Of a stretch of DNA of 64,000 nucleotides, positions 42,406 through 63,327 are shown in pieces. The notes beneath the pieces were generated by a model. That model saw only the letters and a program-made list of their open reading frames with translations, was not told the DNA's origin and ran no database searches. The translations under genes were made by a program, and so were the position numbers. Position 1 is the stretch's first letter. The number at the start of each line of letters is the position of its first letter. Source of the stretch: Cyanidioschyzon merolae (lineage: Eukaryota); assembly GCA_000091205.1 (NCBI GenBank), contig AP006489.2; one strand, 5' to 3'.

Positions 42406-42823
42406 AAATCGGTAACGATTTTCCCGGGCGACCCACGATGGAACAAATATGTTCCATGGCAAGATACCGCAGGGTACATACATGCAGCAATTGCACTGCA
42501 CCGACCTACCTCGAGCGAGCAGTCGCGCTTCGACTCCGGCGACGACCAGGCACTCCATAGCAGAGCGTTAACACCAAACCCGCCGTCTCGATAAACATCG
42601 AAAGCGCGTACCGCACGTACCGTCACGCGGCTACTTCAGCTCGAACCATTGCGCCTGAGTCGAAACATTCACGCTGCCCTGCTCAGCATCCGTACAGATA
42701 CCAGACATGACGTTGTGTTCGAACGTTACAGCAGCTACGACTACGACAACTACGGAATCTCCGCTATGTGCATGTCGATTCGAGATGCACCCATCCAATC
42801 CGTATGTTTGATCTTGCAGCGAT

Positions 42824-44722
42824 TTACGGCTCCATCATGTGCGGGTAGCGCCAGTCGTCAGGCGGTAGAAAACTTTCCTTGATGGCTCGTGCACTCGTCC
42901 AACGCAGTAAATTCAGCACGCTGCCGCTTTTGTCATTGGTACCACTCTGACGCGCGCCTCCAAACGGCTGCTGACCCACAATCGATCCGGTGCACTTGTC
43001 GTTGATGTAGAAATTGCCTGCTGCATCGCGTAAGCGATCCGTCAGGGCCATCACCGCGCTGCGCTCTCGAGCAAATATTGCACCCGTCAACGCATAATCC
43101 GTCCCGTACAGGGCGTGATCCAACGCTGACTCCATTTCAGTGTCCCGATAGACATAGACGGTGAGCACTGGACCGAAGATCTCCTCTCGCATGGTGACAA
43201 AATCGGGATCTCGGGTCTCGATCAGTGTTGGCTGGATGAAATAGCCGACACGATCGTCGCATGAACCACCGTGGATAATCTTCGCGACGGGATTCATTTG
43301 CTGTGACGCAGTCCGAGCTTGTTCAATGTAGTTTCGGATTCGCTCGAAGGCCTGGCGATTGATGACTGCAGACATGAAAATCGAGAAATCCTCCACTGGG
43401 CCCTGTTTGATCTGCTGCATCTCGCGAACCAGGCGATCACGCAGTGTTGGCCAGAGCGACGACGGTACGTACAATCGAGAGGTGGCCGAGCACTTCTGGC
43501 CCTGGTACTCAAAGGCTCCGCGGATGGTATGTGGTACGACCCAGTCCAGATCTGCGCTGGGGTGCACAAAGTGAAAATTCTTACCGCCGGTTTCGCCCAC
43601 AATGCGAGGGTAATTGCGATAATGCGGGAGGTTGCTCGCAACCTGTTGCCAAATCGTGCGGAATGTTCGCGTGCTCCCAGTGAAATGGACACCCGCCAGT
43701 GCTGGATGCTGGAGGCAGGCACGACTGAACGATGGTCCGTCTCCGGGAAGGAACTGGATCACACCCTCGGGGAGGCCCGCTTCCCGCAGAACCTGATACA
43801 CAAACCACGAACTCAGTTCGGTGTTCGGTGACGGCTTCCAAAGTGCCACATTGCCCATGATCGCCGGGCTGCTCGGCAGGTTCGCCCCTATCGCAGTAAA
43901 ATTGAAGGGGCTTATTGCCGCCACAAAACCCTCGAGCGGGCGCCATTCCAGCCGGTTCCAAACACCACGAGGAAAGTGCTCCGGCGGCTGCATATTGTAA
44001 ATCTCGCGCATGTACTTGACCCCGAAACGCCAAAAGTCTATCGTTTCGACCGCGGCATCGATTTCAGCCTGCCATACGTTCTTTGATTGGCCAAACATCG
44101 TTGCGGCATTGAGTCGATATCGATATTTTTGAGAGGCAAGTTCAGCAGCTTTTAGAAAGATAGCTGCACGCTCGTCGGCAGGCGTTCGACTCCAGCGCTC
44201 GCGAGCCTCCAATGCGCCCTGAATCGCTTTCTGTACCAGTTGGCCGTCGAGCGGGCGGTACAACGCAATCACTCGCCGGTGATCGTGAGGCATGACCTGT
44301 TCTACGGGTTCAGCATCATCAAAGTATTCCTTACCGTTGACAACGCAAGGTACACGAACGGGAAACTGGCTTTTCAGAGCTTCCAGCTCTGCTTTGAGCG
44401 CTGCCCGCTCCCTCGATCCGGGCGCATAGTGTTTGTACGTTTCGTTTTCGATTGGCGGAAGCTGTGCGTTTCCCAAAATATGTCCGAACGCATTCAGCGC
44501 TCCCACACTACCGACAGCAGCAGCACTTGGCGTCGGTGCATCAGCAACAGAGGTGCGAACCGTGCGATGCTGGAGCGCGCGCTTCGAAAGCTGCTCGGGC
44601 GCTGCTCGTCGCTGTTTCCATGCTTTGCCTGAAGTTGCGCTCAGTAACGCTCCGGGTAGTTGTAAGCGTGCTCCTAGATTGCGCACTTGGTAAATAGCAG
44701 GCATAACCTTTCCAAACTCCAT
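42824..44722 (-). CDS. ALDH4A1: Delta-1-pyrroline-5-carboxylate dehydrogenase (ALDH4-type, proline catabolism)
   Basis: Full-length ALDH-superfamily collinearity with P5CDH-like N-terminal region and aldehyde dehydrogenase catalytic motifs ('FTGSTRTFRTIW', 'ETGGKNFHFVHPSADLD', 'EYQGQKCSATSRLYV', 'EIFGPVLTVYVY'). Confidence 0.85.
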   Translation of the reverse strand: MEFGKVMPAIYQVRNLGARLQLPGALLSATSGKAWKQRRAAPEQLSKRALQHRTVRTSVADAPTPSAAAVGSVGALNAFGHILGNAQLPPIENETYKHYAPGSRERAALKAELEALKSQFPVRVPCVVNGKEYFDDAEPVEQVMPHDHRRVIALYRPLDGQLVQKAIQGALEARERWSRTPADERAAIFLKAAELASQKYRYRLNAATMFGQSKNVWQAEIDAAVETIDFWRFGVKYMREIYNMQPPEHFPRGVWNRLEWRPLEGFVAAISPFNFTAIGANLPSSPAIMGNVALWKPSPNTELSSWFVYQVLREAGLPEGVIQFLPGDGPSFSRACLQHPALAGVHFTGSTRTFRTIWQQVASNLPHYRNYPRIVGETGGKNFHFVHPSADLDWVVPHTIRGAFEYQGQKCSATSRLYVPSSLWPTLRDRLVREMQQIKQGPVEDFSIFMSAVINRQAFERIRNYIEQARTASQQMNPVAKIIHGGSCDDRVGYFIQPTLIETRDPDFVTMREEIFGPVLTVYVYRDTEMESALDHALYGTDYALTGAIFARERSAVMALTDRLRDAAGNFYINDKCTGSIVGQQPFGGARQSGTNDKSGSVLNLLRWTSARAIKESFLPPDDWRYPHMMEP

Positions 44723-44865
44723 CGGTCCCCGTCTCTATACTTTGACTCGCCTTGCCTGAGAGCACTTTGGGCGGAATCGGAGGTGCAGCCTCTCCAAGCG
44801 ATATGCGCCAGACATCGTACTCGAGGCCGTCGTTGCCGCCGCCAGCGCCACCGCCAGCGTCTTCA

Positions 44866-45327
44866 TACACCGCTGATGTGTACCTCTGATGGGAAGCGTC
44901 GACAGTGGAACACGGAAGGAGGACGATGCATAATCGATGCTTCTGTATTCGCTGGTACGGTGCGTATAATCGGGGATCACTTACACCGCTGATGTGTACC
45001 TCTGATGGGAAGCGTCGACAGTGGAACACGGAAGGAGGACGATGGATAATCGATGCTTCTGTAATCGCTGGTACGGTGCGTATAACCGGGGATCACTTAC
45101 ACCGCTGATGTGTACCTCTGATGGGAAGCGTCGACAGTGGAACACGGAAGGAGGACAATGGATAATCGATGCTTCCGTATTCGTTGGTACGGAGCGTATA
45201 ACCGGGGATCACTTACACCGCTGATGTGTACATCTGATGGGTAGCGTCGACAGTGGAACACGGAAGGAGGACGATGGATAATCGATGCTTCTGTATTCGC
45301 TGGTACGGTGCGTATAATCGGGGATCT
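44866..45327. repeat. Satellite, 116-bp unit, 4 copies
   Basis: The unit 'cttacaccgctgatgtgtacctctgatgggaagcgtcgacagtggaacacggaaggaggacgatg(c/g)ataatcgatgcttc...ggggatca' starts at 44866, 44980, 45096 and 45212. The period is not a multiple of 3, so overlapping ORFs are artefacts. Confidence 0.9.
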
Positions 45328-45860
45328 CTGGTCTGTATGGAAACGTTCTGTCAAACAAATCGAAAAAATAGAACGCGGATCCGTTCGTCACTGCTCGTCG
45401 CGTTGTTCAGAATGCCGATGAGCAGGCGCAATGCGACACTACGGCATGCAGCGGGGATTCTGTTTTTCCAGCGGCATTCAGAGACACTCGCAACAACAAT
45501 AGCGTATGCTGGTAGACAGACTAGAAAACACAGATGTCGTTGGATGCGCAATCAATGGATCTTTTCTTCAGACGCTCCTGCTGCGCGCTGCACAAAACAG
45601 AAATCTTGCGTTTGTCGATGCCTTCGAGAGACGGCACCTGGCATGCCAGCTGCATGCTTGGCGCTGTGCCAAGCGCGCAAAAAAACGGGACCTGCAGTCC
45701 ATCAAGGTACAGAAGGGATCTTGTATTGTCAAGTGACAGGCATTTCTCGTGGAAAAACGCTCTTGCTCGAACACGTTCATCGAGACTCGTAACGATGGTG
45801 ATCGATGTGTTCACACCAAGTTGGCGCTCGCGCTGGATTCCCTGTTATGGACAGAGCGCA

Positions 45861-46035
45861 GAACACGAGGAAAACTGCATATCGACAGATTTGGTCTGTA
45901 TTTTACCACCGCTTGGCAACGATCCATCAACGCGATGGTATAGTCGCGCACAATACGAGGAAAACTGCATATCGACAGATTTGGTCTGTATTTTACCACC
46001 GCTTGGCAACGATCCATCAACGCAATCATAGAGTA
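45861..46035. repeat. Direct repeat, ~93-bp unit, 2 copies
   Basis: 'a(a/t)acgaggaaaactgcatatcgacagatttggtctgtattttaccaccgcttggcaacgatccatcaacgc' occurs twice. Confidence 0.85.
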
Positions 46036-46456
46036 TGCAGCGTTCCTCATCTGGTTATCGGTGCTGCGTGCCGAGCTTCCGTATGACGGCGGCTGTAGCA
46101 ACATTCCAAAACCGAAATCCTTCCGTGGTGCATCAGTTGCAGTGATCCCGCCCAGTGTCGAACGCGCGGATCTGATTGTCCACCAAATATCTCCAAGTAC
46201 CATCCTCGCCGCCGTCATCCTCCTCGTCCACGTCCTTCTCGTCGTCGTCATCGAGAAACATTGTGGAGGTATCTACCAAACGACACAGCGGCAGAATCAC
46301 TGTACACACCTCTGAGAATCCCTTCGAGCAGTCTCGCTGACAGGCAGCGTCAACGCACCTGTCACGCGAGCTATACGTTTATGCACGCCATTTCAGCTGC
46401 CTTCATCCTGCCTGGTATGCTTCTCCGCCGATGCGGTGGCATTAGAGTCGAAGCTT

Positions 46457-48334
46457 TCAATAAATATTTCGACTGTAGAGGTAATGACGCCACTCGCGAC
46501 GATCCCACAGGTTTTCGATGTAATTAAGGATCGCTGCGTCCACATCGAACCCGACGAGATCCGTGGTGTTCACACACACGATCTTCGGCTCTGTGAGACG
46601 GGTGAGGCCCTCCTCCGGTGTCATGATGTAGCGGGGCGGCGTTTTAGCCTCTTCCCCTGTGGTGTTACTCCAGCATGACACCTTCAAGTTGAAGTGCTGC
46701 TTCATAAGAAGTCGAGTTCCTTCCTGCGGGATCTTCCGCTGATTGCGGTGCAAGAACATGACAGAACGTCCCATTTTCTCGAGCCGTGCAAGGACATGTT
46801 TCCGTGCCGATCCATTCGTGGCGAGCGCGGGTGTCCTGACCAGTTCCTCCGGAAACGGCCAGAATTGCAACATGCCATGACCCTGAAACAATCCGTGATC
46901 GTCGTAGAAGCCCACTGATCCCAGAGCTATCGGTGTAATTTCGGATGGCTCATGCAGCGCGAGCGCAGCTAGACGGTACGAGTCCTTGTCGCCGTACAAG
47001 TGCCGATAGAAAAAGTCTCGATGGTGGTACATGTACACGGCAAGCATCAAAGGGCGCCAAAAGCTTCGTTTGCGGTCGATATCACGCCGACGGAGCAGAA
47101 TCTGACCCGATTCGGAACCGCGCCTGTCCTCTATACGGATGCCACAGGCCTGCTGCTCGCTTCCAGGCTCCGTGTACTCTACGGTGCCTTCGTACTGGGA
47201 GCATGGTGGCGGCCCCAGGGCTTTCAGCATCGTTCGGTACGGAACCAGACGGCGATAATCTGACGGTTCAAAGAGGCCAAAATAATCGGTCCAGAAAAAT
47301 CCACCGATATCGCCAAGTCCAAATTTTCCAACGCCAAACAGACCGGTCGGGTCCAGCAATGGGATATTGTCACTGTCGAGAACAAGGATTTCATCGTACA
47401 TGCTCAGCACCATCGCAAATACCTTGAGTCCGTATCCCTCAATGTGCAGCTGTTGCGGACATGACGCATACCAGTTTCGGGTCGTAGCGGAGCCGTTCGC
47501 GCGCAGCTCATAAGCCCGTTGGGCAACCTGCTGAATATTTCGGAAGACAACGGGCGCGAACGTCTTTCGGACCCATGCTTCCAGACCAGGTGTAGGCGCT
47601 TCGCCGGCATCCTGGTAGAAGATCTCAACCGGCAGCCGGCATCCAGCACGATCTCGCAGGGCCTGCAAAGCCACGAGTCCTAGTTGCATGAGTCCGGGCC
47701 CTCCAGCTGGTATCACCACGGCCCTTGTAGCAGTATCCTTGCCGAGTCCGCGGCGCTGTGCTCGTGCTGGCTGAGGCGGCGGTGACGGTATGGCGGCCAT
47801 GAATGCCCTCCAGGCATGTGCATGCCCCCGTATGCGTTGCTCATCGTCGTCGCCCTGGCCTTCTGCGTGTTTCACGTAAACCTCGTGCGCGGAACAGAGC
47901 GCATTTTCAATACCGATCCAAACCTTGGCGAGCTCTGTCAACTCCTCAGTCGTCCAGGGCTCGGGCGCAAGCTCCCAGCCCGACAGGCCGCTGGGCACAA
48001 CTTTCGACGCATCCTCCGAGTCGCCCTCGGGCTGGGCACCGTGCGGTTCCAGTGGCGCCGAGCCGACTCCCGTGGGATGCTCCGGCGAATTCGCGTAGCT
48101 TTTGAAACGCTGCTGCGACCGAGACAGGGTCAAGTGAAACAAGAGCCCAAACAGGAGCAGACCACATAGCACGCCAAGGATCCTCTTCGTGCCCGGCGCC
48201 GTGTCCTGCAACAGCGTACCCCACTTGTTCCGTATTCCACGGAACCTGGAGGCAAGTCTCGGTGCCATAGTCACCGGCAAACCGTCAAGCTCCAAGCGCT
48301 TGGAAGTGACTAGTCCATCCCCCGCCGATGACAA
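46457..48334 (-). CDS. Type II membrane glycosyltransferase, GT71 / alpha-mannosyltransferase (Mnn1/Mnn2-like) family
   Basis: An N-terminal TM segment 'ILGVLCGLLLFGLLFHLTL' is followed by 'VVIPAGG', 'CRLPVEIFYQDAGE', 'KVFAMVLSMYDEILVLDSDNIPLLDPTGLF' and 'GGFFWTDYF', which match the Mannosyl_trans3 signature order. Confidence 0.6.
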   Translation of the reverse strand: MSSAGDGLVTSKRLELDGLPVTMAPRLASRFRGIRNKWGTLLQDTAPGTKRILGVLCGLLLFGLLFHLTLSRSQQRFKSYANSPEHPTGVGSAPLEPHGAQPEGDSEDASKVVPSGLSGWELAPEPWTTEELTELAKVWIGIENALCSAHEVYVKHAEGQGDDDEQRIRGHAHAWRAFMAAIPSPPPQPARAQRRGLGKDTATRAVVIPAGGPGLMQLGLVALQALRDRAGCRLPVEIFYQDAGEAPTPGLEAWVRKTFAPVVFRNIQQVAQRAYELRANGSATTRNWYASCPQQLHIEGYGLKVFAMVLSMYDEILVLDSDNIPLLDPTGLFGVGKFGLGDIGGFFWTDYFGLFEPSDYRRLVPYRTMLKALGPPPCSQYEGTVEYTEPGSEQQACGIRIEDRRGSESGQILLRRRDIDRKRSFWRPLMLAVYMYHHRDFFYRHLYGDKDSYRLAALALHEPSEITPIALGSVGFYDDHGLFQGHGMLQFWPFPEELVRTPALATNGSARKHVLARLEKMGRSVMFLHRNQRKIPQEGTRLLMKQHFNLKVSCWSNTTGEEAKTPPRYIMTPEEGLTRLTEPKIVCVNTTDLVGFDVDAAILNYIENLWDRREWRHYLYSRNIY

Positions 48335-49028
48335 GCATCAGAGGCATGACGCTCGCGGGAAGGCGACCCCGCGGGACGTATCGACCTCTACGTCCCCGGT
48401 TTCCGACGCGGGTACGGATCGCGGCGGCAGCGGCGGCGGCAGCGGCATATCCGTTGCTGCACCGAATTCTGGCATCGATCCGTGGTCAATCTAGACGTTT
48501 TGTCATATGGAAAACGATCCGTTGCTGCGGCAGTAGCGTCGACGGCACGCGCTTGGCGTCATCAGACGAGGTGTTTAGCGGCGCTGGAGAGCGACGACGG
48601 CTGCGACCCTTGCTATCCCCTAGTGCTAGCAGCGCCAGCAGCAGCAGATCGACTCCTGCGGGCTGCGCCCTACGACGCTTCCCATCGACACACAAACACA
48701 CAAACATACCCACACATTCACACAGATACCCAAATCCAGGTACAAAGCGAGAGTCTGAGATACAAGTCGTACGTTCCCTGTTGTCGTTGTGCGAGGCTCA
48801 CCTGCGCGCACCAGGCCAGCAGGCCCGACCGCGCGCTCTACTACTATGGCGGGACATGCTGCATCATGAATGCTCGCTCCGATACCAGTGTCTGTCGCAT
48901 CATCGCGTATCTGTACGCTGTGATGGAACCCCGTGCCCGCAACCCAGCGCAACTGCGAATGCGTACGGTCTACCCGGACACGCACCGTCAGGAACGCTTA
49001 TGGATAATATGGAACCAAAACATACCAT

Positions 49029-51431
49029 TTGATCCCATTTAATCCAGTCCATCGGTGCAGCGTCTCCCGATCCACCACATCGATGGCTGGTATCCAGGAG
49101 CCGGAGCTGGTGCGGCTTTTCTCGCAGAAGCACCACGACACTGGCAGCGCTTGTCCTGATCGAGTTCTGATCGGAAGCAGGCGTGTCAGCATGCGACGTA
49201 GTCGGGGAAAGTCCGCAAGGCGAAGCCGCAAGCTGGAGCCATGGGAGCTGTCCAGCGACGACGATGAAGACGGTGCGTTGGCGTCGGGTTCAGGCGACAG
49301 CGATGAGAGCTTTGCGAGTGTTTCGGACACAGAGCGTGCGCGTGCTGTGAACCAGGTATCGACAGAGACCTCTGGTCGTGCGATGCTACGGGGCAAACGA
49401 GTGTCTGGCGCAGCTGCCGCTGGATCCAGCACGGACGACGCTGGCACGCTCCAGGACCCTGAGAGCAGAGTGAAGCGGCAGCGCGCGGCGCGTCCCAAGG
49501 ACGACCGACGGACCGGGAGCGACGCGGATACGGACAACCTGGTAAACGCTGACACCGCCGCTGAGAAGGCCAAGGAAGCGTCGACTCAGGACCTGAGCGA
49601 GCTGGAAGATATCGAAACGGAACCCGAATTCGACGACGGCTACGACGCCGAGGGTTACGGCGATGAACAGGATCGTGCGCACCTCCTCTCCCTGACGGCA
49701 GTCGAACGGGAAACCATTCTTGCAGAGCGCTTCGAGCGCCGACAGAGGGAGTACGAAGCATACTTGTTCCGAAAAGCGCTTCGTGAGCGCCGGCGTGCCG
49801 CCATCGACGCTCGAAAGCAGCAGCGGGATGCCTCCAGTGCTGACAAGGCAACGCTTGCCGAACGTGAAAGAGCGAAAAAGAGAACCCGCAAACAGGCTTT
49901 AGATGCCTTAGCACAAGCAAAGAGGCGAGATAAATCGTCTTCTCGGAGGCGTGCCAGCGATAGCGAGGCATTATCGCAGGCGTCGGATCTCGATGAAAGT
50001 GACTGGAGTGCAACACATCCGCCGGGGCTCTCGGAGACCGACTCGGTATCCGACATGCCCCACGGTACCGATGAAGAGGAGGATGGTGCTCAGCGCCGTC
50101 GCCGTGGCACCCTGCCCGTTTCGGCTAGCGCGAGCGTTCAACGAAGAACTCCCGTAGAGCGTTCCCACGGCCTGTTGTCGAAGACCATGACATTCGCGGA
50201 CCTGGTAGATCCACAGACCGGAGCACCGTCACCGCTTGTGTTGACGCGCGGACTTGTGGAACGATTCCATCAGAAGCCATGGTTCACTCGGTTTGCTCTG
50301 GGTTCGTTCGTGCGAGTGCCGTTACCGCCCACAGCAAGCGCGAATGCCACGTCGTCGACACCACAGCAACTGCAACAGTACGTTTTGGCGCGTGTAAGTG
50401 CGATCCTGAAGGCACCGAGGCTGTACCCGGTACCGTCGACGCAGGTCGTCGAGGGCGGGCGCCCCGCACCGCCATTCAAAGTAGGGTTTCGGATTCAGGC
50501 AGAGCTCTGCGGTCGTCAAAGGCGCTTTTCGGTTGATCAGCTGTCACGGCACGCTCCATCAGAGCTCGAGTGGTTGCACTACGAGAAACGTCACCAGGAG
50601 CAACGCCTGCCGCTCCCGTCTCGAGATGAGGTCGAAGCGCTGCGAGCCGAGAAGCTCGCGTTCATGCGAGGCGAGATCCCTGCGACACCCGAGGAGATTG
50701 CCGATTTCCAAGCCGAGTTTGAACGTCTTCACCCCGAAGCCGTGAATTATGCTCGTCGTATCACACAGGTACGGGCGCAACTGGCGCACGCTCAGGAAGC
50801 AGGCGACATGGAGAAGCAAAACGCGTTGGCGGCAGAACTGGAGCGCTTGGCGGAACTCGAGACTCGTTATGGACAGCGCCCGCGTGAGGGCTCGTCCAAC
50901 GAACAAGTACGTGATATGCTGCTATCGAGAAGGCATCATATGCCGTCGACAGAGTCCAAGTTCACACCACAGCGTCCAGCTCCGGAAGCGGAACTCCCGC
51001 TGGCAGCCTCGCTCATGCTGCTGAAACGCACTGTCGAGGAGCAGAACGCTGTGGAGCTGGATCCTTTCGCGCGTCGCGTCGCGCGGGGCACGAGTTACTT
51101 CTTCACACCCAGCAAAGCGACGTCCTCTGAGGCAGCCACCGACGCAAGTGCATCGCTCGAGTCGGAGACCAGGCGGAGCATCGGTGCTACCGGGCAACCG
51201 CCACCGCCTCCGCCTCCGCCTCGTGAAGCGAATATCCCAGCGAACGCACATCGCGCAGAGGCCTTGCGGGAACTCATCCCTCAAATAGAGCGTTGGCTAT
51301 GGTATGGCCCGCTTTTGGAGCCTTTACGCAATGTCGAATTATCATCGGCTGATGAGGATGTGTTCCTTGCTTCTCGCGCGCGCTTTGAGCACCTTCGACG
51401 CGCCCAGGGCGATGCGTCTGTCGCGCTCTGA
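49029..51431 (+). CDS. RTF1: Paf1-complex subunit RTF1-like (acidic/Ser-rich N-terminus plus Plus3 domain)
   Basis: A D/E/S/R-rich N-terminal half is followed by 'LVERFHQKPWFTRFALGSFVRVPL...YVLARVSAILKAPRLYPVPSTQVV...LCGRQRRFSVDQLSRHAPSELEWLHY', which fits the Plus3 domain. A coiled region follows. It also contains a Pro-run. Confidence 0.62.
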   Translation: MIPFNPVHRCSVSRSTTSMAGIQEPELVRLFSQKHHDTGSACPDRVLIGSRRVSMRRSRGKSARRSRKLEPWELSSDDDEDGALASGSGDSDESFASVSDTERARAVNQVSTETSGRAMLRGKRVSGAAAAGSSTDDAGTLQDPESRVKRQRAARPKDDRRTGSDADTDNLVNADTAAEKAKEASTQDLSELEDIETEPEFDDGYDAEGYGDEQDRAHLLSLTAVERETILAERFERRQREYEAYLFRKALRERRRAAIDARKQQRDASSADKATLAERERAKKRTRKQALDALAQAKRRDKSSSRRRASDSEALSQASDLDESDWSATHPPGLSETDSVSDMPHGTDEEEDGAQRRRRGTLPVSASASVQRRTPVERSHGLLSKTMTFADLVDPQTGAPSPLVLTRGLVERFHQKPWFTRFALGSFVRVPLPPTASANATSSTPQQLQQYVLARVSAILKAPRLYPVPSTQVVEGGRPAPPFKVGFRIQAELCGRQRRFSVDQLSRHAPSELEWLHYEKRHQEQRLPLPSRDEVEALRAEKLAFMRGEIPATPEEIADFQAEFERLHPEAVNYARRITQVRAQLAHAQEAGDMEKQNALAAELERLAELETRYGQRPREGSSNEQVRDMLLSRRHHMPSTESKFTPQRPAPEAELPLAASLMLLKRTVEEQNAVELDPFARRVARGTSYFFTPSKATSSEAATDASASLESETRRSIGATGQPPPPPPPPREANIPANAHRAEALRELIPQIERWLWYGPLLEPLRNVELSSADEDVFLASRARFEHLRRAQGDASVAL

Positions 51432-51840
51432 CTCGGTCGGGTCCGCTGGCTGGGGGCAAATACCAGTGATGTGCCCGGGACGGTCTGCTGCAACTGGCGA
51501 CTGTCGTGCTGCGGCTCGTGATCCAGGGTGTACGCTGGCAAGCGCGAGCGTGCGCTTGGAACACTAGAAAAAAGAGACAAGTTCGTGGTGTGCCCGTCGA
51601 CGCCGTGCGTGAAACGTTGCGCGTCTCATGCGCTTGTCCGCCAACCACAGCGTTGCTGCTGCGTTTTCGAGCAGCATTGGCGACCTGGTGCACTCATGGT
51701 CACATGATTAGACGCGGTACCTGGTCGGTAGCGCAGGTCACTGGTTTGGGAATGCCGTCCGCGTTTCTTCTTGTCGCGATGGACGTCACCGCAGCACGGT
51801 AAAAGCACGAACCCTCGGATCTGGGCGCCCAAGGCCGATT

Positions 51841-53871
51841 CTATGAATCAGGGAAATCGACCTTTCGTGGCGTGTGTTGGCAGACACCCGGGTCGGTGAA
51901 TGCATCGCCCACGGGCTCCAGATAGACCACAATACAGGTGGTGTCATCAATGACGGATTCCTCGGCCATCCACCGACGCACAGCTTCCTGCACGAGTTGT
52001 TCTGCAACAGCTTGCGGCGACTCGCCTTGATCCTTACGTCTGCCAACGAACTGCACTACATCATCACTGCTGAGGAATTCCCAGATACCGTCGCTACCGA
52101 GTACAATGAACGCATCAGCCGGGCATACCTCCAGGTGATAAATTTCCGGATCGGCGATCACACCGATGTTCTCCACGACCTGGTCACCGAAAGAACGGCT
52201 CATGGCGAGGCCAGGGACTCGAGTTGTCGGTAGCCACACTCGCGCCGGTCCTATATTGCCATGCCAGGACTCTACGTGGCCTCCCAGGTTCTGGATGCGT
52301 TTCCGCTCATCGGGACGGTCGGGCTTGTGGTCGACACTCAGGGCCACCGCGTAATATCGCGCCTGTTTGCTGCGCGTCGCTGCGGCATCGTCAGACGCCC
52401 CGCGTCCAGTCAGCCTTCGACCGAGGACCGCTCGAGAGTCACCGACGTTTGCGCAGAAGAGTTCGCGGCCGTGAAGCAGGACAATGATGCCCGTGGTGCC
52501 GCTAAATCGCGAGTCGATCCCGCCCAGCCCGTCATCCTCATCGTCCACGTCTGGAATAGATTCCATGCTGGTTGATGGTCGCGAATTTTCCCGAACTGTT
52601 GCCACCGCCTGATGCAGCATCGATTTCATGTTGTTCCAGAGGTAGGCAAATGCATCGGTTTCTGGCTCGAGTTCCAGAAGCTCACCGCGTGCAGTCAAGA
52701 GCTGCTCGGCATTCAAACATGTCCGCCGTAGTGCCTCGGCGGGCTTGTCATGGAGCGCGTGATCGTAGAGGAAGCGCGCAAGCAGTTTCGGAACAATGTT
52801 TCGAATGTAGTGCGAACAGAGACGTCCAGCGACACCATGTCCATCGAACACCGCCCACAGGGCATCGGACAAAACATGCGGTGGAATGTTGCTCCCTGTC
52901 GCACGCAGAATCATTTCGTGATACTGTACGGAGGCACCCTTCACGTTCGGGTTCTCTGGCAAATGCCGCAAACTCAGATGACGTGGAGTCATGACTGTCA
53001 CAGTCGCAAGCGACGCCTCCGGATCATCGAAGGTGCGCGTTCCCGAACTATCCTCCATGAGATTGTCGAGGCCATCTCGGGTTGAGATGCGTCGCTCGAG
53101 CTTCGACGGCTGACGCGGAATGCACTGCATGTCGCAGGGTTTTGCAACCTCGTTTTCACCTCTTGGGGCCAAGGTCGAGCAAGTCCACGCTGGGACCAAA
53201 GGCATCAATACGCACGCGGAATCCTGGTTCTCCTTGCCTTTCCGCACGGGTTCCCAGCCGGTTCTGGAAACAACGCCCGCGGATAAACGCAGCGCAGGTC
53301 GGGCGGCAGGCGGCTCCAGCGGCAGTTCATAGGACAACTCCGAGTGCAGAACCTCTGCAGCACTATCCTGCTTGGTGATAGGCAGTGGTCGCACTACGGC
53401 TCCCTTATCGTCAAACTGAACCTTATACTCTTGAAAGTGGTGATGCGCACGGTTCCGGTTACTTTCTTCGTCTGCGGCGGCAGCCTCGCCGTCCAGGGGA
53501 AGCGTTCCCTCGTTCGCGACTGAGAGGCGCCTTCTGGCCCCCAAAAAGGAGAAAAAGAAACGGTCAGACCGGCGGTCAAGCGAAAGTCGGCCGCCGGAGC
53601 TCTCCGAGGCGGCGCCAACTGCCGCGCCCTCCTGCTCTCCAGCAGCGGCACTTGACTGCTGTTGCGACTTGTGCTCCGTGCGACCGCCACCAGCGTTAGG
53701 TTGCACCCCCGCTGCTGTGCTCCGTTCCCCGGGAACTGAAGAAGCGCCCCTGTTCTTCTTCTGCGCGGTCGTTGAACTGGTCGGTTGCTGGGAGCCTCCG
53801 TTGTGAACTGTGTCCACGCAGTCGTCGTCGAGTTTCGTGTCGAGGTCCAACTTGGACTTGCAGAGACCCAT
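51841..53871 (-). CDS. PP2C-family Ser/Thr phosphatase with N-myristoylation motif and long N-terminal extension
   Basis: 'MGLCKSK' is a canonical MGxxxS myristoylation site. The PPM motifs 'AVFDGHGVAGRLCSHYI', 'LSVDHKPDRPDERKRIQNLGGHV', 'GLAMSRSFGD' and 'IVLGSDGIWEFL' are present. Confidence 0.85.
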   Translation of the reverse strand: MGLCKSKLDLDTKLDDDCVDTVHNGGSQQPTSSTTAQKKNRGASSVPGERSTAAGVQPNAGGGRTEHKSQQQSSAAAGEQEGAAVGAASESSGGRLSLDRRSDRFFFSFLGARRRLSVANEGTLPLDGEAAAADEESNRNRAHHHFQEYKVQFDDKGAVVRPLPITKQDSAAEVLHSELSYELPLEPPAARPALRLSAGVVSRTGWEPVRKGKENQDSACVLMPLVPAWTCSTLAPRGENEVAKPCDMQCIPRQPSKLERRISTRDGLDNLMEDSSGTRTFDDPEASLATVTVMTPRHLSLRHLPENPNVKGASVQYHEMILRATGSNIPPHVLSDALWAVFDGHGVAGRLCSHYIRNIVPKLLARFLYDHALHDKPAEALRRTCLNAEQLLTARGELLELEPETDAFAYLWNNMKSMLHQAVATVRENSRPSTSMESIPDVDDEDDGLGGIDSRFSGTTGIIVLLHGRELFCANVGDSRAVLGRRLTGRGASDDAAATRSKQARYYAVALSVDHKPDRPDERKRIQNLGGHVESWHGNIGPARVWLPTTRVPGLAMSRSFGDQVVENIGVIADPEIYHLEVCPADAFIVLGSDGIWEFLSSDDVVQFVGRRKDQGESPQAVAEQLVQEAVRRWMAEESVIDDTTCIVVYLEPVGDAFTDPGVCQHTPRKVDFPDS

Positions 53872-54233
53872 GACTCTTCGCCGCTACTTCGATTCCAAAG
53901 CGTTACGAAGTTCCGTCGCAAGTCGAGCGCCGATCTATAATCGTTACGGTGCCGTACTCCAGTGAGAGGCACACGCTGTACGCAGAGCAAGGTTCACCAA
54001 CAAGGTAGCGCAGGGAGTCGTGTCCAGTGCGTTTCTCGCTCTGACTCTGTCTCTGACTTTGCCCGGCTGCTTATCCCGTGTGGACACGTCCGAACACGTG
54101 TACGTCATTTGCGCGTGGCGATGGCGGCGGTGATGGCGCGTCGTTGGCGGGCGCGTCATCCCCGCTGCTGCTCGAAGCGCTTGATGAGGCCTCTGCTCCG
54201 CTGGTACCAGGTACACGTCGTTGGTTGTATCGG

Positions 54234-54790
54234 GTACTGGAACACCAGTGCCTACAACGACTTGTGAAGAGAACTTGTTTCCTGTGTATATTCGGCGGTA
54301 CATAACACCAGTACCTACAACGACTTGTCAAGAGAAGTTGTTTCCTGTGTATATTCGGCGGTACATAACACCAGTACCTACAACGACTTGTCAAGGGAAC
54401 TTGTTTCCTGTGTATATTCGGCGGTACATACCACCAGTACCTACAACGACTTGTCAAGAGAACTTGTTTCCTGTGTATATTCGGCGGTACATACCACCAG
54501 TACCTACAACGACTTGTCAAGAGAACTTGTTTCCTGTGTATATTCGGCGGTACATAACACCAGTACCTACAACGACTTGTCAAGAGAACTTGTTTCCTGT
54601 GTATATTCGGCGGTACATAACACCAGTACCTACAACGACTTGTCAAGAGAACTTGTTTCCTGTGTATATTCGGCGGTACATAACACCAGTACCTACAACG
54701 ACTTGTCAAGAGAACTTGTTTCCTGTGTATATTCGGCGGTACATAACACCAGTACCTACAACGACTTGTCAAGAGAACTTGTTTCCTGTG
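54234..54790. repeat. Minisatellite, 63-bp unit, ~9 copies, abutting IR copy 2
   Basis: The unit is 'gtacataacaccagtacctacaacgacttgtcaagagaacttgtttcctgtgtatattcggcg'. All six frames are open through the array, giving 21-aa periodic pseudo-ORFs. The last ~16 bp of the unit ('tatattcggcggtaca') are identical to the first bases of IR copy 2. Confidence 0.9.
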
Positions 54791-56074
54791 TATATTCGGC
54801 GGTACATGGCTCTTGTTGGCATTGCTTGCACTGAACGGAAGCATGCTGTGCTGCACAGATGGGAATCGAATTGGACCTAAACTGGATGATGAGGTTGCTT
54901 TTCATCGCAAGTACGCAGCGTTTCAGCACAATATCTACACGGTGTACGATACAGCAGTCTCGTATGTTTGCTAGATACAGAGGCGCTGGACGCTGCGGAA
55001 GCACGAGAAAGTTCTGGATGCTGATCGAGTCGTTCAAGTCTGTGACGAAACGCGTAATGCCTGCGCGCAAGGTTGCAGATGGAGTCACACTGTAGCGGGC
55101 CGCCAGCCTCTGCATAGCGTGCTGTGTGATGCTCAGTCGACTGCTGGGGCATCATTTCATGGGGACAATGCTGTTTCTGGCACAGCCTGTCTAGGTATTT
55201 CAGCGTGCATCTGAGCACGTGATGCCTATATTTCGTCCTAAAGGCGTCGACAGGCACTGTAGGCAGTCGGATCATTTACGAGCGCGCTATGCGCCCGCCG
55301 AAGGGGCATCAGTACAGCCTTTATACGCTGCCGCATGTGCAGTGTCATAGGCTGGGGCGCAAACAATCGCGGCTATCGGGTCAGTGCCAGTTTCAACTCA
55401 TCTAAGAACACAACGGATGCCTGCTTCTTGTCCGCGTGCAACCGATATTGCTGGCGGCACTAGCGTCATCTCATGGACGCTTGCCAAAGACCGGGCACAG
55501 GAGCCGTGTGTGGACGCTCACATACGCTTGACAGGAAACGCTCTGTTCTGGATCAAGTGGAAGCGCAGGGTACAACGAAGAAAGTCATTCCGTTGCGACC
55601 TTCCTTTGTGTGCCATGTTCATCCGTACGATCGTATGCCAAGCGCCATGATGCGTTTGGACGCTCTGAAGCGATTCTCGCTTTCGTTGCGATATCGCTTC
55701 CGCCATAACCAGCTCGTCATTTGTCTCCAACGACACAGTGAGAATTCCTTCCGCCGTTTCCTGCTATGATCGACGAGCGAGGTTACGGTATAATGCCCGT
55801 ATCGTTTGCCGCATGAAGCGCTCGGTATCGACCCGCATCTTGTTGCCGAGCCCTAATGGATCCTCTGTGACAACCTGCACGGTGGATGTTCTAAACGCCG
55901 ATGTGGTGCGGTAACGTGTCAAGGTATTCTGGGAAGCGCATGTGTGCACTGTTAATTCTACGATCATCCGTTGTGATGTCGCATAAAGGGTTTGATCGAA
56001 AACTTCCGGAAGCATGTGAACAGCTGGCAACGAAACGAGCGGAAACCCTGCGAATGTCTTCGTAACGAGGTACG
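54790..56074 (-). repeat. Inverted-repeat element, copy 2 (~1.29 kb)
   Basis: See copy 1. A few substitutions are visible (for example S/F, D/Q and MTWKRK/IKWKRR changes in the twin ORFs), for about 98-99% identity. The outer ends diverge within ~10 bp of 41112 / 56074. Confidence 0.9.
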
Positions 56075-57064
56075 TCAAATCGAAATAAATTAGGTTAGCC
56101 TTGCTCATGCAAGATGCCTCAACATCGTCGATGGTATTCCGCAACTTTCGATGTCATCCATGCAAACGACTCGTATACTAGTCCGAATACATGAAATTGG
56201 CCTCTGATATCAGAGAAGACGCCTGGACTCTACATATCCGACGAGAAAAAGTCCGGCACGAAGAGCATCTCGAAGCATATCTATGCTGCGTACGCCTCCA
56301 CAGCCACGGACGATGGAAAGCGACGCTATCAAAAAGCAGGGCAGGAGCATTTCGAATACGGAAGCTATGAGTTTCCGCGAATACGAAGGATGAGGCGCTG
56401 GTGGATTCTTCTCGTTGGGCGGTTCGTAGACGACCACAAGACGGCATCGCCGCTGGAGCTGATATTGTCATTAATCTCGCGAGTCTCTGCTTTACAGCCA
56501 ATGGTTTTGCCCTCGTTGAATAACCATACGCAGATCCACCGTTTCAGCTGAAGAAACGCTCATCGACTGAAGAAAGAAACCGACGTTTCTTTGCTCCATA
56601 CCGATCGCTGATTTCTAGGATCTCCCTGGGTGCTTGTTCGGTGGAAGGCTGTCGTGCATGAGCTAGGACTCATTTGTTGCGACTGTGTCCCAGTATTTTC
56701 AGGACCACGAATCCAAGCGGTTGAGAAACTGAGACGTCTGTGGCGGCTTCCATCGTTGCTTTCGCTTTCCGTAAGGTGATCAACAGGACTTTTTCTACCA
56801 TGGACGGCAAGCACTGTTTTAGAGTATTGGTTTTCGGGTAGAGCGCATCTGGTTTCTTTCAGTGTTGTTCATTCATCTGCGTATTTTCGTATGACTAACT
56901 TCAAGGAGAAATACAGTCCTCCTTGCACTGTTCAGAAAAGAACCTATATCCCAAAACGCAACTTATCTCCGATCTATAGTATACATTACATCGTAATGTC
57001 GGTTTCTTGCTACACATCACATCAAGGATGAAACAAATAACAAAGTTGAGAGACTATAAAGAAG

Positions 57065-57300
57065 CCTGTGATTGTAGTATGCGGCACTGGACTCGGAAAC
57101 GCGGGGCATTGAGGAAAGTCTTCTGTACCCGCCAAGGGCATAAGCCGAGCGGTGATGCACGCTTTCTCGCGCCAATGGGTGGCGCTCGAAGGGAGCGGTT
57201 CGGTTGACCTACGGGAACTCCTGATCACAGCCAGATGTCACAGCTGGGAGCGGCGCTCCGAGTCTCAATGTAAAGGAGTTGTGAAGGCCAAGCGAACCCA
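57065..57300 (+). repeat. Dispersed ~260 bp repeat, copy C of 3
   Basis: Aligns with 95-350 (for example 'ctggactcggaaacgcggggcattgaggaaag' against 'ctggacgcggaaacggagtgcatcgaggaaag', and a shared 'ctcctgatcacag...'). Confidence 0.6.
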
Positions 57301-57754: not shown

Positions 57755-59713
57755 ATGGAAAACTTGCTCTTCCAGGCAGAAGGAATCGGAACCGGGAACG
57801 ACACCGATTCTGAACCCGGCGATGAGCGCAACTCAACAACCGAGCTCTGGGAGCACAGCGCTGCGGCACTGGCGCGCAACCCCTGCGGCTGTCCTGCAGA
57901 AGAAAGCCAAGCACGATGTTGCCGCGACCTAGACGCTAGGCAAAACTCCCATAGTCATCCGGAACAACGAGCGATCGTCTGTACGCACGAGGCGGTGTTC
58001 AGCCTCGACGAACGCGGCTCAGTAGCGGCTCCGTCGCTGGATACCCGACACTTACTTGCTGAGCCACCGGCACTCGCAACCTCGCTTGGCACCCATTATC
58101 GGCAAATTGGGCTTGCCGTTCCGCCAAATGGGGAACTGCAGTGCTTCACGCCTCGAGGAGAGGCGCTTTCAGCCTACTGGCGAACGAGTCAACTCGGGGG
58201 GCCTGTCACGAGTACCTGCGTCGGCGAACTGGATCCGCTCGAGCACGTCGCTAACCAGACCGTGCTGGACGCGACATCGAGCCGGGGGCTCACTACACCC
58301 GCAGAGCACCATGAAAAGGGCATTGCAGAGCCAGTGACGACGCAACCCGTTTTCCGAATCGTTCTCACAGGTGGTCCGTGCGCCGGCAAGACCACTGCAA
58401 TGGCCCTGTTGGCTGAAAGGTTCCGTTCCCGCGGTTTCCGGGTATTCCTCGTACCAGAGGCTGCAACGCTGCTCTTTACGGGCGGTGCCGGCCAGGCGAA
58501 TATCACTGGAGACTCAGAGTGTCGGATCCTGTTCCAGAGCATTCTAGCTCGCCTCCAGATCACACTGGAGGACGGTTTCTTCGCGCTGGCACAACAGTGT
58601 CGAGCGCCGTCTATCGTTCTCTGTGATCGCGGCTTCCTCGATGGTCGTGCCTACATGTCTGGAGACGAGTATACCGAAATGCTTGGTCAAAACGCATGGA
58701 ATCTGATCGAGATGCGCGATCAGCGGTACGACGCTGTCTTGCACCTGGTGACTGCAGCGGATGGAGCGGAATCGTTTTACACCTGCGAGGGCCACGCTGC
58801 GCGTTCGGAAAGCCTCCGTGAAGCACGACAAGTGGACGCTCGAACCCGGGAAGCTTGGTCGGGTCATCCGCGCCTGTACGTTATCGAAAATCGCAATCGC
58901 TGGCTGGCAGAGCATTCATCGACGTGCTCTCTGGACGAGGCCCCAGCCGCTGCACCACCGAATGACCAAGAATTCCTACCGCTGGGGCACTGCACACCGT
59001 CTCCAGGTTTCGCGGAGAAAATGGAACGTCTCTTCTCCATCGTTTGCCGGCTTGTTGGCTTGCCAACTCCGGCCCATATGCTGGATCGCAAGTTCCTTCT
59101 CACGCCCGACGCGAACATGGTGAATCATTTGCGAGCAGATCCACATGTTCGTGGCCTGCAGACGTTTCGCGTTGAGCAGACATTCCTCATTCGCGCGCAG
59201 GCCTCTAGTAGCAATGACAAGTCGGATCCCAAGAACCAATCCCAGGCACCAGTGTTTTGGGCCAGTCAGCAAGAGCATGTGCGGCGGCGAGGTCGAGACG
59301 GTTTCCATAGCTACACGCACTGCATCCGCCGCCGCTATGCAGAATGGAGTCACCAGCAATCGAATCCAATCTCAGAGCGCAAAGCACAGCCGTGGGTTGA
59401 ACTGCGCCGCAACATCAGCCTCCAAGAGTATCATTTGTTGCTGGGGTACGCAGACCCACGTCATCGGACGCTTTTAGTATGGCGTTCCTGTTTCTTCTAT
59501 CACAATGCTTACTTTGTTCTAGACCAGATAGAGAACGCAAACGTTGGGCCGGTGGCGCTTCTTCGAACGAGCGCTTCGTCAACGTCGCGCTCGGGGTCGA
59601 CGGACGCGCCGACGCCTGCGGGACTCCCGCTCAGCAACTGCGTTCGCTGTGAAGTGACCGCTGATGCGAGGTACGCATTCTACGCCCTGTCTCGACGCTG
59701 TCCATGTAGTTAG
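57755..59713 (+). CDS. P-loop NTPase of the AAA_28 (NadR/NRK-like) type fused to a C-terminal CYTH-like (triphosphate-tunnel) region
   Basis: The Walker A 'FRIVLTGGPCAGKTTAMALLAERF' is followed by 'VFLVPEAATLLF' and 'IVLCDRGFLDGRAYM', the AAA_28 pattern. The C-terminal part 'FRVEQTFLI...HCIRRRY...LLVWRSCFFYHNAYFVLDQIENANVGPVALL' resembles a CYTH beta-barrel (EiErKFL ... K.Ry ... DvF). That part is inference. Confidence 0.5.
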   Translation: MENLLFQAEGIGTGNDTDSEPGDERNSTTELWEHSAAALARNPCGCPAEESQARCCRDLDARQNSHSHPEQRAIVCTHEAVFSLDERGSVAAPSLDTRHLLAEPPALATSLGTHYRQIGLAVPPNGELQCFTPRGEALSAYWRTSQLGGPVTSTCVGELDPLEHVANQTVLDATSSRGLTTPAEHHEKGIAEPVTTQPVFRIVLTGGPCAGKTTAMALLAERFRSRGFRVFLVPEAATLLFTGGAGQANITGDSECRILFQSILARLQITLEDGFFALAQQCRAPSIVLCDRGFLDGRAYMSGDEYTEMLGQNAWNLIEMRDQRYDAVLHLVTAADGAESFYTCEGHAARSESLREARQVDARTREAWSGHPRLYVIENRNRWLAEHSSTCSLDEAPAAAPPNDQEFLPLGHCTPSPGFAEKMERLFSIVCRLVGLPTPAHMLDRKFLLTPDANMVNHLRADPHVRGLQTFRVEQTFLIRAQASSSNDKSDPKNQSQAPVFWASQQEHVRRRGRDGFHSYTHCIRRRYAEWSHQQSNPISERKAQPWVELRRNISLQEYHLLLGYADPRHRTLLVWRSCFFYHNAYFVLDQIENANVGPVALLRTSASSTSRSGSTDAPTPAGLPLSNCVRCEVTADARYAFYALSRRCPCS

Positions 59714-63073: not shown

Positions 63074-63327
63074 AGCGATATTGTGTAACCACCGCAAGGA
63101 AGCCGCCCTTGTTAAACGCAATGCGATGCTGAATACGACTGTCGATTTCGCGATCAAGCCAATATTGTGTAACCACCGCTAGGAAGCCGACCCTGTTAAA
63201 AGCGATACCACACAGAATATGACTGTCGATTTCGCGATCAGGCCAATATTGTGTAACCACCGCAAGGAAGCCGACCCTGTTAAAAGCGATACCACACAGA
63301 ATACGACTGTCGATTTCGCGATCATGC
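63074..63327. repeat. Tandem repeat, ~84-bp unit, 3 copies
   Basis: 'aatattgtgtaaccaccgc(a/t)aggaagccg(a/c)cc(c/t)tgttaaa(a/c)gc(g/a)at...gactgtcgatttcgcgatca(a/g/t)gcc' recurs at 63078, 63161 and 63245. Confidence 0.85.

What the first reader, a model, noticed from the sequence alone, without database searches (positions are those of the whole stretch)
54234..54805. 63-bp minisatellite seeded from the inverted-repeat terminus
A ~9-copy 63-bp array sits directly against IR copy 2. The 3' part of every unit ('tgtgtatattcggcggtaca') is the terminal sequence of the IR. Copy 1's terminus (rc '...ccgccgaatataca') has the same end but no array. The repeat therefore seems to have expanded from the element's end, or the terminus was captured into the array, at one copy only. 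This marks the two IR copies as not symmetric and may indicate replication-slippage or recombination activity at the IR boundary. All six frames are open across the array, so the 261 aa and 219 aa periodic ORFs are artefacts of a stop-free unit.
Basis: seen in the sequence. Interest (0 to 1): 0.5.

Follow-up and report, generated by a model that had tools for sequence, protein, structure and literature searches.

The report
Variable 63-bp minisatellite at repeat boundary
A real, length-variable 63-bp tandem repeat lies upstream of a phosphatase gene in the red alga Cyanidioschyzon merolae; its unit straddles the end of a 1.3-kb inverted duplication, which makes it a tidy but ordinary case of repeat instability and not a new kind of element.

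Summary
The core observation holds. There are 9.0 copies of a 63-bp unit at 54241-54807. They abut arm 2 of a 1,299-nt, 99% inverted repeat (41108-42406 / 54789-56087). The last 19 nt of every unit (TGTATATTCGGCGGTACAT) are the arm's terminal bases, and arm 1 has them once with no array. The six-frames-open claim is wrong.

The window is C. merolae 10D-type chromosome 7. The array lies 370 bp upstream of a PP2C gene. In metagenome contigs of the same species it is a hypervariable VNTR, with 1-10 units and different variant-unit maps. A neighbouring 116-bp array varies too.

The repeat has no transposon hallmarks, gene or RNA family. It is the homogenised core of an older inverted duplication, because the outer flanks are still ~62% alike. 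Polymorphisms at its positions 3 and 21 are shared by both arms and the array units, which indicates gene conversion right up to the terminus.

Best reading: a 63-bp segment spanning the unique-flank/repeat junction was duplicated in tandem and then expanded and contracted by slippage or unequal exchange.

Some contigs join ALDH through the repeat to the AAA_28 side, as if the 12.4-kb block were inverted. Haplotypes and the missing reciprocal junction favour assembler mis-threading.

Overall: ordinary kind, new instance, low-to-moderate interest.

The parts
54241..54807 (.). 63-bp minisatellite (VNTR), 9.0 units in this genome; unit = AACACCAGTACCTACAACGACTTGTCAAGAGAACTTGTTTCCTG (44 nt, unique to this site) + TGTATATTCGGCGGTACAT (19 nt, start of IR arm 2)
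   Evidence: TRF. Unit listing. Unit-variant map 10G,26G | 34G | 30G | 2C | 2C | = | = | = | =. Sharp edges with no decayed flanking unit.
54789..54807 (+). 19-nt overlap: last 19 nt of the last array unit, which are also the first 19 nt of IR arm 2
   Evidence: 10 occurrences against 0.01 expected.
54789..56087 (+). IR arm 2 (1,299 nt); its inner end abuts the array and its outer end faces the AAA_28 gene
   Evidence: It differs from arm 1 at 14 sites.
41108..42406 (-). IR arm 1 (1,299 nt); its inner end (42388-42406 = reverse complement of the 19-mer) abuts unrelated flank B with no array
56153..56563 (+). Decayed continuation of the inverted duplication beyond the outer end of arm 2 (about 62% identity to 40190-40604 in inverted orientation)
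   Evidence: Local alignment score 73 against a shuffle mean of 16.5, z = 26. First seen.
40190..40604 (-). Partner of the decayed outer homology on the arm-1 side, separated from arm 1 by about 440 nt of extra sequence
51841..53871 (-). PP2C phosphatase gene (one residue different from C. merolae 10D BAM79698.1); its ATG is 370 bp from the array
   Evidence: Pfam PF00481..
42824..44722 (-). Aldehyde / 1-pyrroline-5-carboxylate dehydrogenase gene (BAM79695-like); its 3' end is 417 bp from arm 1
42407..54788 (.). 12.4-kb block between the arms (ALDH, mannosyltransferase, Plus-3/Rtf1-like, PP2C, plus the array)
   Evidence: Gene order and orientation are the same in related lineages.
57755..59713 (+). 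AAA_28 gene on the outer (D) side of arm 2

Best explanation
This is an intergenic hypervariable minisatellite (VNTR) in the nuclear genome of Cyanidioschyzon merolae (10D-type chromosome 7), 370 bp upstream of a PP2C gene. Its 63-bp unit arose when a segment spanning the junction between unique upstream DNA (44 nt) and the first 19 nt of one arm of a 1.3-kb inverted segmental duplication was duplicated in tandem. The array then grew and shrank by replication slippage, unequal sister-chromatid exchange or repair synthesis. The 1.3-kb repeat is not a mobile element. It is the core of an older inverted duplication, and the two arms stay about 99% identical through gene conversion. Conversion runs to the last shared base, so the array's last unit is also the end of the converted tract, and variants pass between array units, arm 2 and arm 1. 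The array most likely has no function of its own, and its ORFs are artefacts. Shown: array, overlap, asymmetry, polymorphism, variants shared across arms, decayed outer homology. Inferred: order of events (boundary first, array second), the slippage/unequal-exchange mechanism, and neutrality.
For: Array and IR. Organism: five window proteins are identical to 10D proteins BAM79680/85/88/89/91, two of which are found only in the 584-kb 10D record; PP2C differs from the 10D protein by one residue. VNTR: contigs of the same species that span the whole array carry 1, 2, 3, 4, 5, 6 and 10 units against 9 here. Their maps of variant units are different and partly nested, for example 12G|34G,61T|=|10G,47C, then 12G|=|34G,61T|=|10G,47C, then 12G|30G|2C|34G,61T|=|10G,47C. 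Collapse of the window's allele cannot produce these different first and last units. A nearby 116-bp array also varies, while an older 84-bp array with diverged units does not. Boundary: inner flanks B and C+44 nt show no homology (z = 0), whereas outer flanks A and D keep about 62% identity over about 410 nt (z = 26). So the duplication is old, while the array is young or homogenised (98% unit identity, no decayed edge unit). Concerted evolution: 40 variable sites in the arm are not tied to flank context except the last three. The T/C variant at arm position 3 and the G/A variant at position 21 occur next to copy 1's unique flank and also in array units and the last unit. Not a mobile element or gene: no TIR, no Rfam hit at E <= 1, no tRNA, no homolog of the 132-aa ORF, no Pfam hits, no coding-like codon-position GC, and only two genomic contexts recovered. 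The repeat is absent from the orthologous intergenic regions of C. yangmingshanensis and a third lineage, which are 1.2-2 kb against 3.9-4.2 kb here.
Against: The order of events is not proven. An array that already existed could have donated 19 nt of its last unit when arm 1 was made or last converted. Copy numbers from short-read metagenome assemblies are lower bounds, because identical neighbouring units can collapse, and the one-unit allele (L007) could be such a collapse. The unit has no unusual single-strand structure (z about 0), and only about 5 nt of microhomology (GGTAC) lies at the array's left edge, so no specific slippage trigger was identified. Shared variants at positions 3 and 21 could in principle be recurrent mutations. 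Neutrality is assumed; transcription and promoter position were not testable. Only the 64-kb window and fragmentary contigs were searched for further copies of the repeat, not the whole 16.5-Mb genome.
Confidence: 0.72

Rival explanations
1. Array first, capture second. The minisatellite already existed upstream of PP2C. Arm 1 was later created or overwritten by an inverted duplication or a long conversion/repair-synthesis tract copied from the arm-2 side, and its end fell 19 nt into the last array unit. On this reading the 19-mer is a captured piece of the array and not the repeat's own terminus.
For: The overlap is equally well explained. Tandem arrays are fragile sites where template switches and tract ends can fall. 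The 99% core has a sharp inner edge with no homology beyond it, as expected for an arbitrary breakpoint. The copy-1 junction is identical in all copy-1 junctions recovered, so it is a single old event either way.
Against: The duplication looks much older than the array: the outer flanks have decayed to about 62%, while the array has 98% identical units and no decayed edge units. A hypervariable array would have had to keep the same unit and phase for the whole of that time. Alternatively the 1.3-kb core would have to be a separate recent transfer, which needs an extra event.
Confidence: 0.2
2. The two arms are an active recombination substrate. The 12.4-kb four-gene block flips between two orientations in natural populations, and the array marks one inner boundary of an invertible segment.
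For: Contigs from at least six assemblies join ALDH through the repeat to the AAA_28 side instead of the mTERF side. These include L050 (46.8 kb), L051 (21.1 kb) and L055 (11.7 kb), each with 8-10 kb of that side. Arms of 1.3 kb at 99% identity that demonstrably exchange sequence are a plausible substrate for inversion.
Against: The reciprocal junction (mTERF side - repeat - array - PP2C) was never seen among 6 informative contigs. Contigs with the same B-flank haplotype show different junctions: L052 against L051, and L023 against L025. The arm interior is a context-independent mosaic in these population assemblies, so short-read assemblers cannot phase flanks across it and may thread them at random. 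The finished 10D reference and two related lineages all have the window's orientation.
Confidence: 0.2
3. Satellite born from a transposon terminus. The 1.3-kb repeat is a non-autonomous mobile element, and the array was generated from its end by transposition-linked or aberrant-excision processes.
For: The unit contains the terminal 19 nt of the repeat. Tandem arrays derived from transposon ends are known from other eukaryotes (general knowledge).
Against: No terminal inverted repeats, no target-site duplication (flanks read), no transposase or other homolog, and only two contexts found. The outer end is not discrete, because homology continues beyond it. 44 of the 63 nt are not from the repeat at all, and the other copy has no array.
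Confidence: 0.03
4. Functional array: either a repeat-protein coding region, or a reiterated regulatory module whose copy number tunes expression of the PP2C gene 370 bp away.
For: Open periodic frames exist, and gene callers call them in metagenome contigs. The position is promoter-proximal in a divergent intergenic region.
Against: The array ORFs lack this genome's coding GC1 > GC3 > GC2 pattern (GC1 0.45 against 0.61-0.70 in genes). Variant positions in units show no 3-periodicity (positions). There is no Pfam or homolog support. Copy number ranges from 1 to 10 in wild contigs with no conserved core number, and the array is absent from related lineages. Regulation could not be tested here.
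Confidence: 0.05

Closest known systems
Hypervariable minisatellites / VNTR loci (units of 10-100 bp, as in human and yeast minisatellites typed by variant-repeat mapping)
   Same: Head-to-tail units of 63 bp. Copy number differs between samples (1-10). Variant units are interspersed in allele-specific maps, and nested alleles differ by whole units. The location is intergenic..
   Different: The array is AT-richer than its surroundings (GC 0.44 against 0.53-0.59), unlike the classical G-rich tracts. No recombination-hotspot core motif was identified. The organism is a unicellular red alga noted for an extremely repeat-poor genome (PMC1955436). The unit's origin can be read directly because it straddles a duplication boundary.
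Tandem arrays derived from ends of dispersed or mobile repeats (transposon-terminus-derived satellites)
   Same: Each unit carries the terminal bases of a longer repeated sequence, and the array sits flush against that repeat.
   Different: The parent repeat shows none of the hallmarks of a mobile element. Only 19 of the 63 nt come from it. Only one of its two copies has an array.
Inverted segmental duplications kept alike by gene conversion, which can mediate inversion by non-allelic homologous recombination (for example inverted low-copy repeats in animal genomes; flip-flop isomers of plastid genomes)
   Same: Two 1.3-kb arms at 99% identity in inverted orientation flank a 12.4-kb unique block. 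Polymorphisms are shared between arms, and the high-identity core lies inside older decayed homology.
   Different: Inversion itself is not demonstrated here. Only one of the two expected novel junctions appears, and only in short-read assemblies that cannot phase the repeat.

Membership tests
Minisatellite / VNTR | Tandem head-to-tail repeats with a unit of roughly 10-100 bp | tested here: met
   63 bp x 9.0, 98% matches, TRF score 1092.
Minisatellite / VNTR | Copy number varies between individuals or isolates at the same locus | tested here: met
   Array-spanning contigs of the same species carry 1, 2, 3, 4, 5, 6 and 10 units against 9 here. Caveat: short-read assemblies can under-count identical neighbouring units.
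Minisatellite / VNTR | Allele-specific interspersion of variant units | tested here: met
   At least seven different variant-unit maps with different first and last units.
Transposon-terminus-derived satellite | Parent repeat is a mobile element (TIRs or LTRs, target-site duplication, multiple dispersed copies, or a transposition gene) | tested here: not met
   No TIR, no TSD, no homologs or Pfam domains, two contexts only, and a non-discrete outer end. The whole genome was not searched.
Transposon-terminus-derived satellite | Array accompanies several copies of the element | tested here: not met
   Copy 1 lacks any array in the window and in every copy-1 junction recovered.
IR-flanked invertible segment (NAHR inversion polymorphism) | Two highly similar arms in inverted orientation flanking a unique segment | tested here: met
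   1,299 nt, 99%, 12,382 nt apart.
IR-flanked invertible segment (NAHR inversion polymorphism) | Both orientations exist, shown by both reciprocal novel junctions on molecules that span an arm | tested here: inconclusive
   The B-R-D junction is present in at least six assemblies, three with long flanks. The A-R-C junction was seen in 0 of 6 informative contigs. Junction type is not linked to flank haplotype. Assemblies cannot phase the arm.
Concerted evolution of duplicated sequence by gene conversion | Polymorphisms shared between paralogous copies in copy-specific contexts | tested here: met
   Variants at arm positions 3 and 21 occur beside unique flank B and beside or inside the array. 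The CTGC patch at 1031-1041 and others occur in all contexts.

The most novel reading that the evidence does not exclude
The 1.3-kb arms are not just a relic. They recombine often enough that the 12.4-kb block carrying ALDH, a mannosyltransferase, an Rtf1-like gene and PP2C exists in both orientations within natural C. merolae populations. The VNTR lies at one inner recombination boundary and exchanges variants with both arms. This would be a nuclear flip-flop segment in an alga known for having almost no repeats.
Probability: 0.2. Interest if true: 0.5.

Novelty: new member of a known kind. Interest (0 to 1): 0.27.

Why it matters
The significance is modest. C. merolae 10D is a model with a finished, famously repeat-poor genome (PMC1955436). 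This locus gives a ready-made hypervariable marker for telling wild strains apart in hot-spring samples, where coding regions are more than 99% identical. Together with the 116-bp array 9 kb away, it would give two such markers. It is also a clean natural example in which the birth of a minisatellite can be read from sequence, because the unit is a chimera of unique DNA and the edge of a duplication. It further shows gene conversion between nuclear inverted repeats operating up to the last shared base in this organism. The practical warning is that the 1.3-kb homogenised repeat makes short-read assemblies join the wrong flanks. Apparent inversions of this four-gene block in metagenome-assembled genomes should therefore not be trusted without long reads.

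Tried and rejected
1. A degenerate 'zeroth' unit left of the array (TTGTATCGGGTACTGG resembling the 19-mer) is rejected: 682 of 1000 dinucleotide shuffles score as well, as do 360 of 591 control windows.
2. Homology between the inner flanks, which would mean the repeat extends into the unit's 44-nt part, is absent (z = 0).
3. L003 and L009 as 'empty-site' alleles is rejected. They diverge at different points (54091 and 54073) into unrelated sequence of different composition and are probably chimeric joins.
4. Hairpin-driven slippage is not supported: a unit dimer folds no better than shuffles on either strand.
5. The repeat as a gene, RNA or virus-derived sequence is not supported: no Pfam hits, no homologs, no Rfam hit even at E <= 1, no tRNA, no phage similarity.
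6. Metagenome hits L016 and L018 to the 19-mer are chance matches.
7. Diagnostic differences between the window's arms could not be used to find a crossover point in the 'inverted' contigs, because the arm interior is the same mosaic in every context.
8. The 10D chromosome DNA could not be fetched; the look-up for the 10D PP2C returned only metagenome contigs. Orientation in 10D was inferred from accession order instead.
9. A look-up of the array/repeat junction ORF to find the reciprocal junction returned only a known contig.

Full report
WHAT IS THERE. Tandem Repeats Finder reports a 63-bp array at 54241-54807 with 9.0 copies, 98% matches and score 1092. The repeat finder reports one long inverted pair, with arms at 41108-42406 and 54789-56087, 1,299 nt long, 99% complementary and 12,382 nt apart. 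Written unit by unit, every unit ends in TGTATATTCGGCGGTACAT, and the last unit runs straight into GGCTCTTGTTGG..., which is the start of arm 2. Read in the same orientation, arm 1 is ...CGTTACCGATT|TGTATATTCGGCGGTACAT|GGCTCTTGTTGG.... The two copies therefore become homologous exactly 19 nt before the end of the array's last unit. The other 44 nt of the unit are foreign to copy 1. The 19-mer occurs 10 times in the window (9 units plus copy 1) at up to 3 mismatches, against 0.01 expected.

One sub-claim is not correct. In the real array only two frames are free of stops, one has a single stop, and three have 6-9 stops. The consensus unit is open in 3 of 6 frames. The periodic ORFs of 261, 219 and 169 aa exist but do not look coding. 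Their GC1 is 0.45, against 0.61-0.70 in the window's genes.

WHERE IT IS. The window's long ORFs are eukaryotic: aldehyde dehydrogenase, mannosyltransferase, a Plus-3 domain protein, PP2C, AAA_28, mTERF and Mpv17. The PP2C is 80% identical to that of Cyanidiococcus yangmingshanensis and 59% identical to that of Cyanidium caldarium. Five other window proteins are exact matches to Cyanidioschyzon merolae 10D proteins BAM79680, 79685, 79688 (CYME_CMG193C), 79689 and 79691. Two of these are known only from the 584,452-bp 10D record. The PP2C differs from BAM79698 by one residue. The window is therefore 10D-type chromosome 7.

The array lies 370 bp upstream of the PP2C start codon (minus strand, ATG at 53871). 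It sits in a 3.9-kb divergent intergenic region shared with the AAA_28 gene. Arm 1 lies 417 bp downstream of the ALDH stop codon.

Gene order and orientation (mTERF, ALDH, ManT, Plus-3, PP2C, AAA_28, Mpv17) are the same in C. yangmingshanensis and in a third lineage. There the two intergenic regions measure about 1.2-2 kb instead of 3.9-4.2 kb and contain nothing similar to the arm or the unit.

THE ARRAY IS A POLYMORPHIC VNTR. Look-ups of the window's proteins retrieved dozens of metagenome and Logan contigs that are about 99% identical to the window. Contigs that span the whole array, from the unique left flank to the start of arm 2, carry the following unit counts:
- 1 unit: L007
- 2 units: L053
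- 3 units: L046, L049
- 4 units: L047, L051
- 5 units: L001, L002
- 6 units: L005, and L017/L050 (one contig)
- 10 units: L030
- at least 7 units: L052, which ends inside the array

The maps of variant units differ between contigs. The first unit is 12G or 10G, and the last unit is '=', '10G,47C' or '10G,26G'. Some maps form nested series that differ by whole units. Short-read assemblers can merge identical neighbouring units, so the counts are lower bounds. Collapse of the window's allele cannot, however, create these different maps.

A 116-bp array 9 kb away (44866-45326) also differs by whole units between contigs. An 84-bp array whose units have diverged (86-88% identity) is constant. High-identity intergenic minisatellites that vary in length are thus a general feature of this genome, and this one is not exceptional in kind.

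WHAT THE 1.3-KB REPEAT IS. It has no terminal inverted repeats and no target-site duplication. It has no Pfam domain and no homolog of its longest ORF anywhere. There is no Rfam family even at E <= 1, no tRNA and no phage similarity. An exact-match look-up with an ORF inside the arm recovered only the two known contexts.

Its inner edge is abrupt: flank B and flank C plus the 44-nt part of the unit show no similarity (z = 0). Beyond its outer edge, after about 440 nt of extra sequence on the arm-1 side, the flanks are still about 62% identical over about 410 nt (z = 26). So the 99% arm is the well-preserved core of an older inverted duplication, not a discrete element.

That core evolves in concert. 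Across contigs there are 40 variable sites in the arm, and apart from the three nearest the outer edge none is tied to a flank context. The T/C variant at arm position 3 (unit position 47) and the G/A variant at position 21 occur directly beside copy 1's unique flank, and also in array units and the last unit. These contexts are copy-specific within a few bases, so the sharing is not an assembly artefact. It is best explained by gene conversion that runs to the very end of the homology. Recurrent mutation is the less parsimonious alternative. In every copy-1 junction recovered, the flank abuts a single 19-mer, and array units never appear there.

HOW IT MOST LIKELY AROSE. The unit is a chimera of unique DNA and the edge of the duplication, so a 63-bp tandem duplication must have spanned that junction. 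Which came first is inferred, not shown. The duplication is old, because its outer flanks have decayed to about 62%. The array looks young or is actively homogenised: unit identity is 98% and the edges are sharp. The apparent degenerate unit on the left is no better than chance. I therefore favour 'boundary first, array second' at about 3:1 over the alternative, in which an existing array lost 19 nt of its last unit to arm 1 when that arm was made or overwritten.

Expansion and contraction by replication slippage, unequal sister-chromatid exchange or repair synthesis is the standard mechanism for such arrays, and it fits the whole-unit differences between alleles. I found no specific trigger. 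The unit has no unusual single-strand structure, and only about 5 nt (GGTAC) of microhomology lies at the left edge. I found no evidence of function, and promoter effects on PP2C remain untested.

AN UNEXPECTED SIDE ISSUE: IS THE BLOCK INVERTED IN SOME SAMPLES? Call the flanks A (mTERF side), B (ALDH side), C (PP2C/array side) and D (AAA_28 side). The window reads A-arm-B ... C-array-arm-D.
- A-arm-B was found in L052/L065, L066, L022, L023, L024 and L035.
- C-array-arm-D was found in L030 and L031 (each with 7.9 kb of D), L001 and L046.
- B-arm-D, which an inversion of the 12.4-kb block would create, was found in L050 (a 46.8-kb contig), L051 (21.1 kb), L055 (11.7 kb), L019, L025 and L032.

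Three observations argue against a real, stable inversion:
- The reciprocal junction A-arm-array-C never appeared in 6 informative contigs.
- Contigs with identical B-flank haplotypes show different junctions: L052 against L051, and L023 against L025.
- The arm interior in these population assemblies is a context-free mosaic, so a short-read assembler has nothing with which to phase the flanks.

The finished 10D genome has the window's orientation, judged from accession order, and so do both related lineages. Mis-threading through a homogenised 1.3-kb repeat is the most economical explanation. Real flip-flop remains possible, at about 0.2, and is easy to test with long reads or four-primer PCR.

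LITERATURE. Full-text searches found no description of this array or inverted repeat. The paper on the completed 10D genome stresses the scarcity of repeats. It mentions that 13 former gaps are 99.4-100% identical to other regions, but it does not discuss this locus (PMC1955436). A 2024 survey of dispersed repeats did not analyse tandem repeats (PMC11050394).

VERDICT. This is a hypervariable minisatellite of a familiar kind whose origin happens to be legible. It is useful as a strain marker and as a caution for assemblies, but it is not a new mechanism.

Noticed in passing
window 41108-56087; loci L050, L051/L060, L055, L019, L025, L032: Contigs from at least six assemblies join ALDH through the 1.3-kb repeat to the AAA_28/Mpv17 side, as if the 12.4-kb four-gene block were inverted. 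The reciprocal junction was never seen, and junction type is not linked to flank haplotype, so mis-threading by assemblers is the likelier cause.
   Followed up: yes
window 44866-45326: The 116-bp x 4 minisatellite between ALDH and the mannosyltransferase gene also differs by whole units in other samples (1, 2 or 3 units against 4 here).
   Followed up: partly
window 94-558, 12769-14066, 17511-18872, 35490-36156, 57061-57517: A dispersed family of intergenic sequences about 56-64% identical to one another, in both orientations. Its nature is unknown (old repeat family or shared regulatory or UTR sequence).
   Followed up: no
window about 39985-39996: Three independent contigs from different samples (L052/L065, L066, L067) all end within 12 nt of each other here, although nothing repetitive is visible. 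This may be a structural difference between wild strains and 10D to the left of this point.
   Followed up: partly
L003 1-782 and L009 1-181 (junctions at window 54091 and 54073): Two contigs diverge from the window about 200 bp upstream of the PP2C start into unrelated sequences of different composition. These are probably chimeric assembly joins and not alternative alleles.
   Followed up: partly
window 51841-53871 (codon 14) and 42824-44722: The PP2C protein differs from the deposited 10D protein at one residue (F14 against L14), and the ALDH protein is also not identical to the 10D entry. Five proteins elsewhere in the window are exact matches. The window may be a resequenced 10D or a very close strain.
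   Followed up: partly
window 56088-63800 (compared with L030, L031, L050, L051, L055, L061-L063): Sixty-six informative sites define three clear wild haplotype groups on the AAA_28 side. The 10D sequence looks like a mosaic of them, which hints at recombination among C. merolae lineages.
   Followed up: no
window 32381-32698, 45856-46023, 63078-63329: Three further intergenic tandem arrays: 147 bp x 2.2, 90 bp x 1.9 and 84 bp x 3. The 84-bp array has the same length in nine contigs.
   Followed up: partly
L034 3731-3799: The contig ends with a 69-nt fold-back copy of repeat sequence (window 41774-41706), probably an assembly artefact at the inverted repeat.
   Followed up: no
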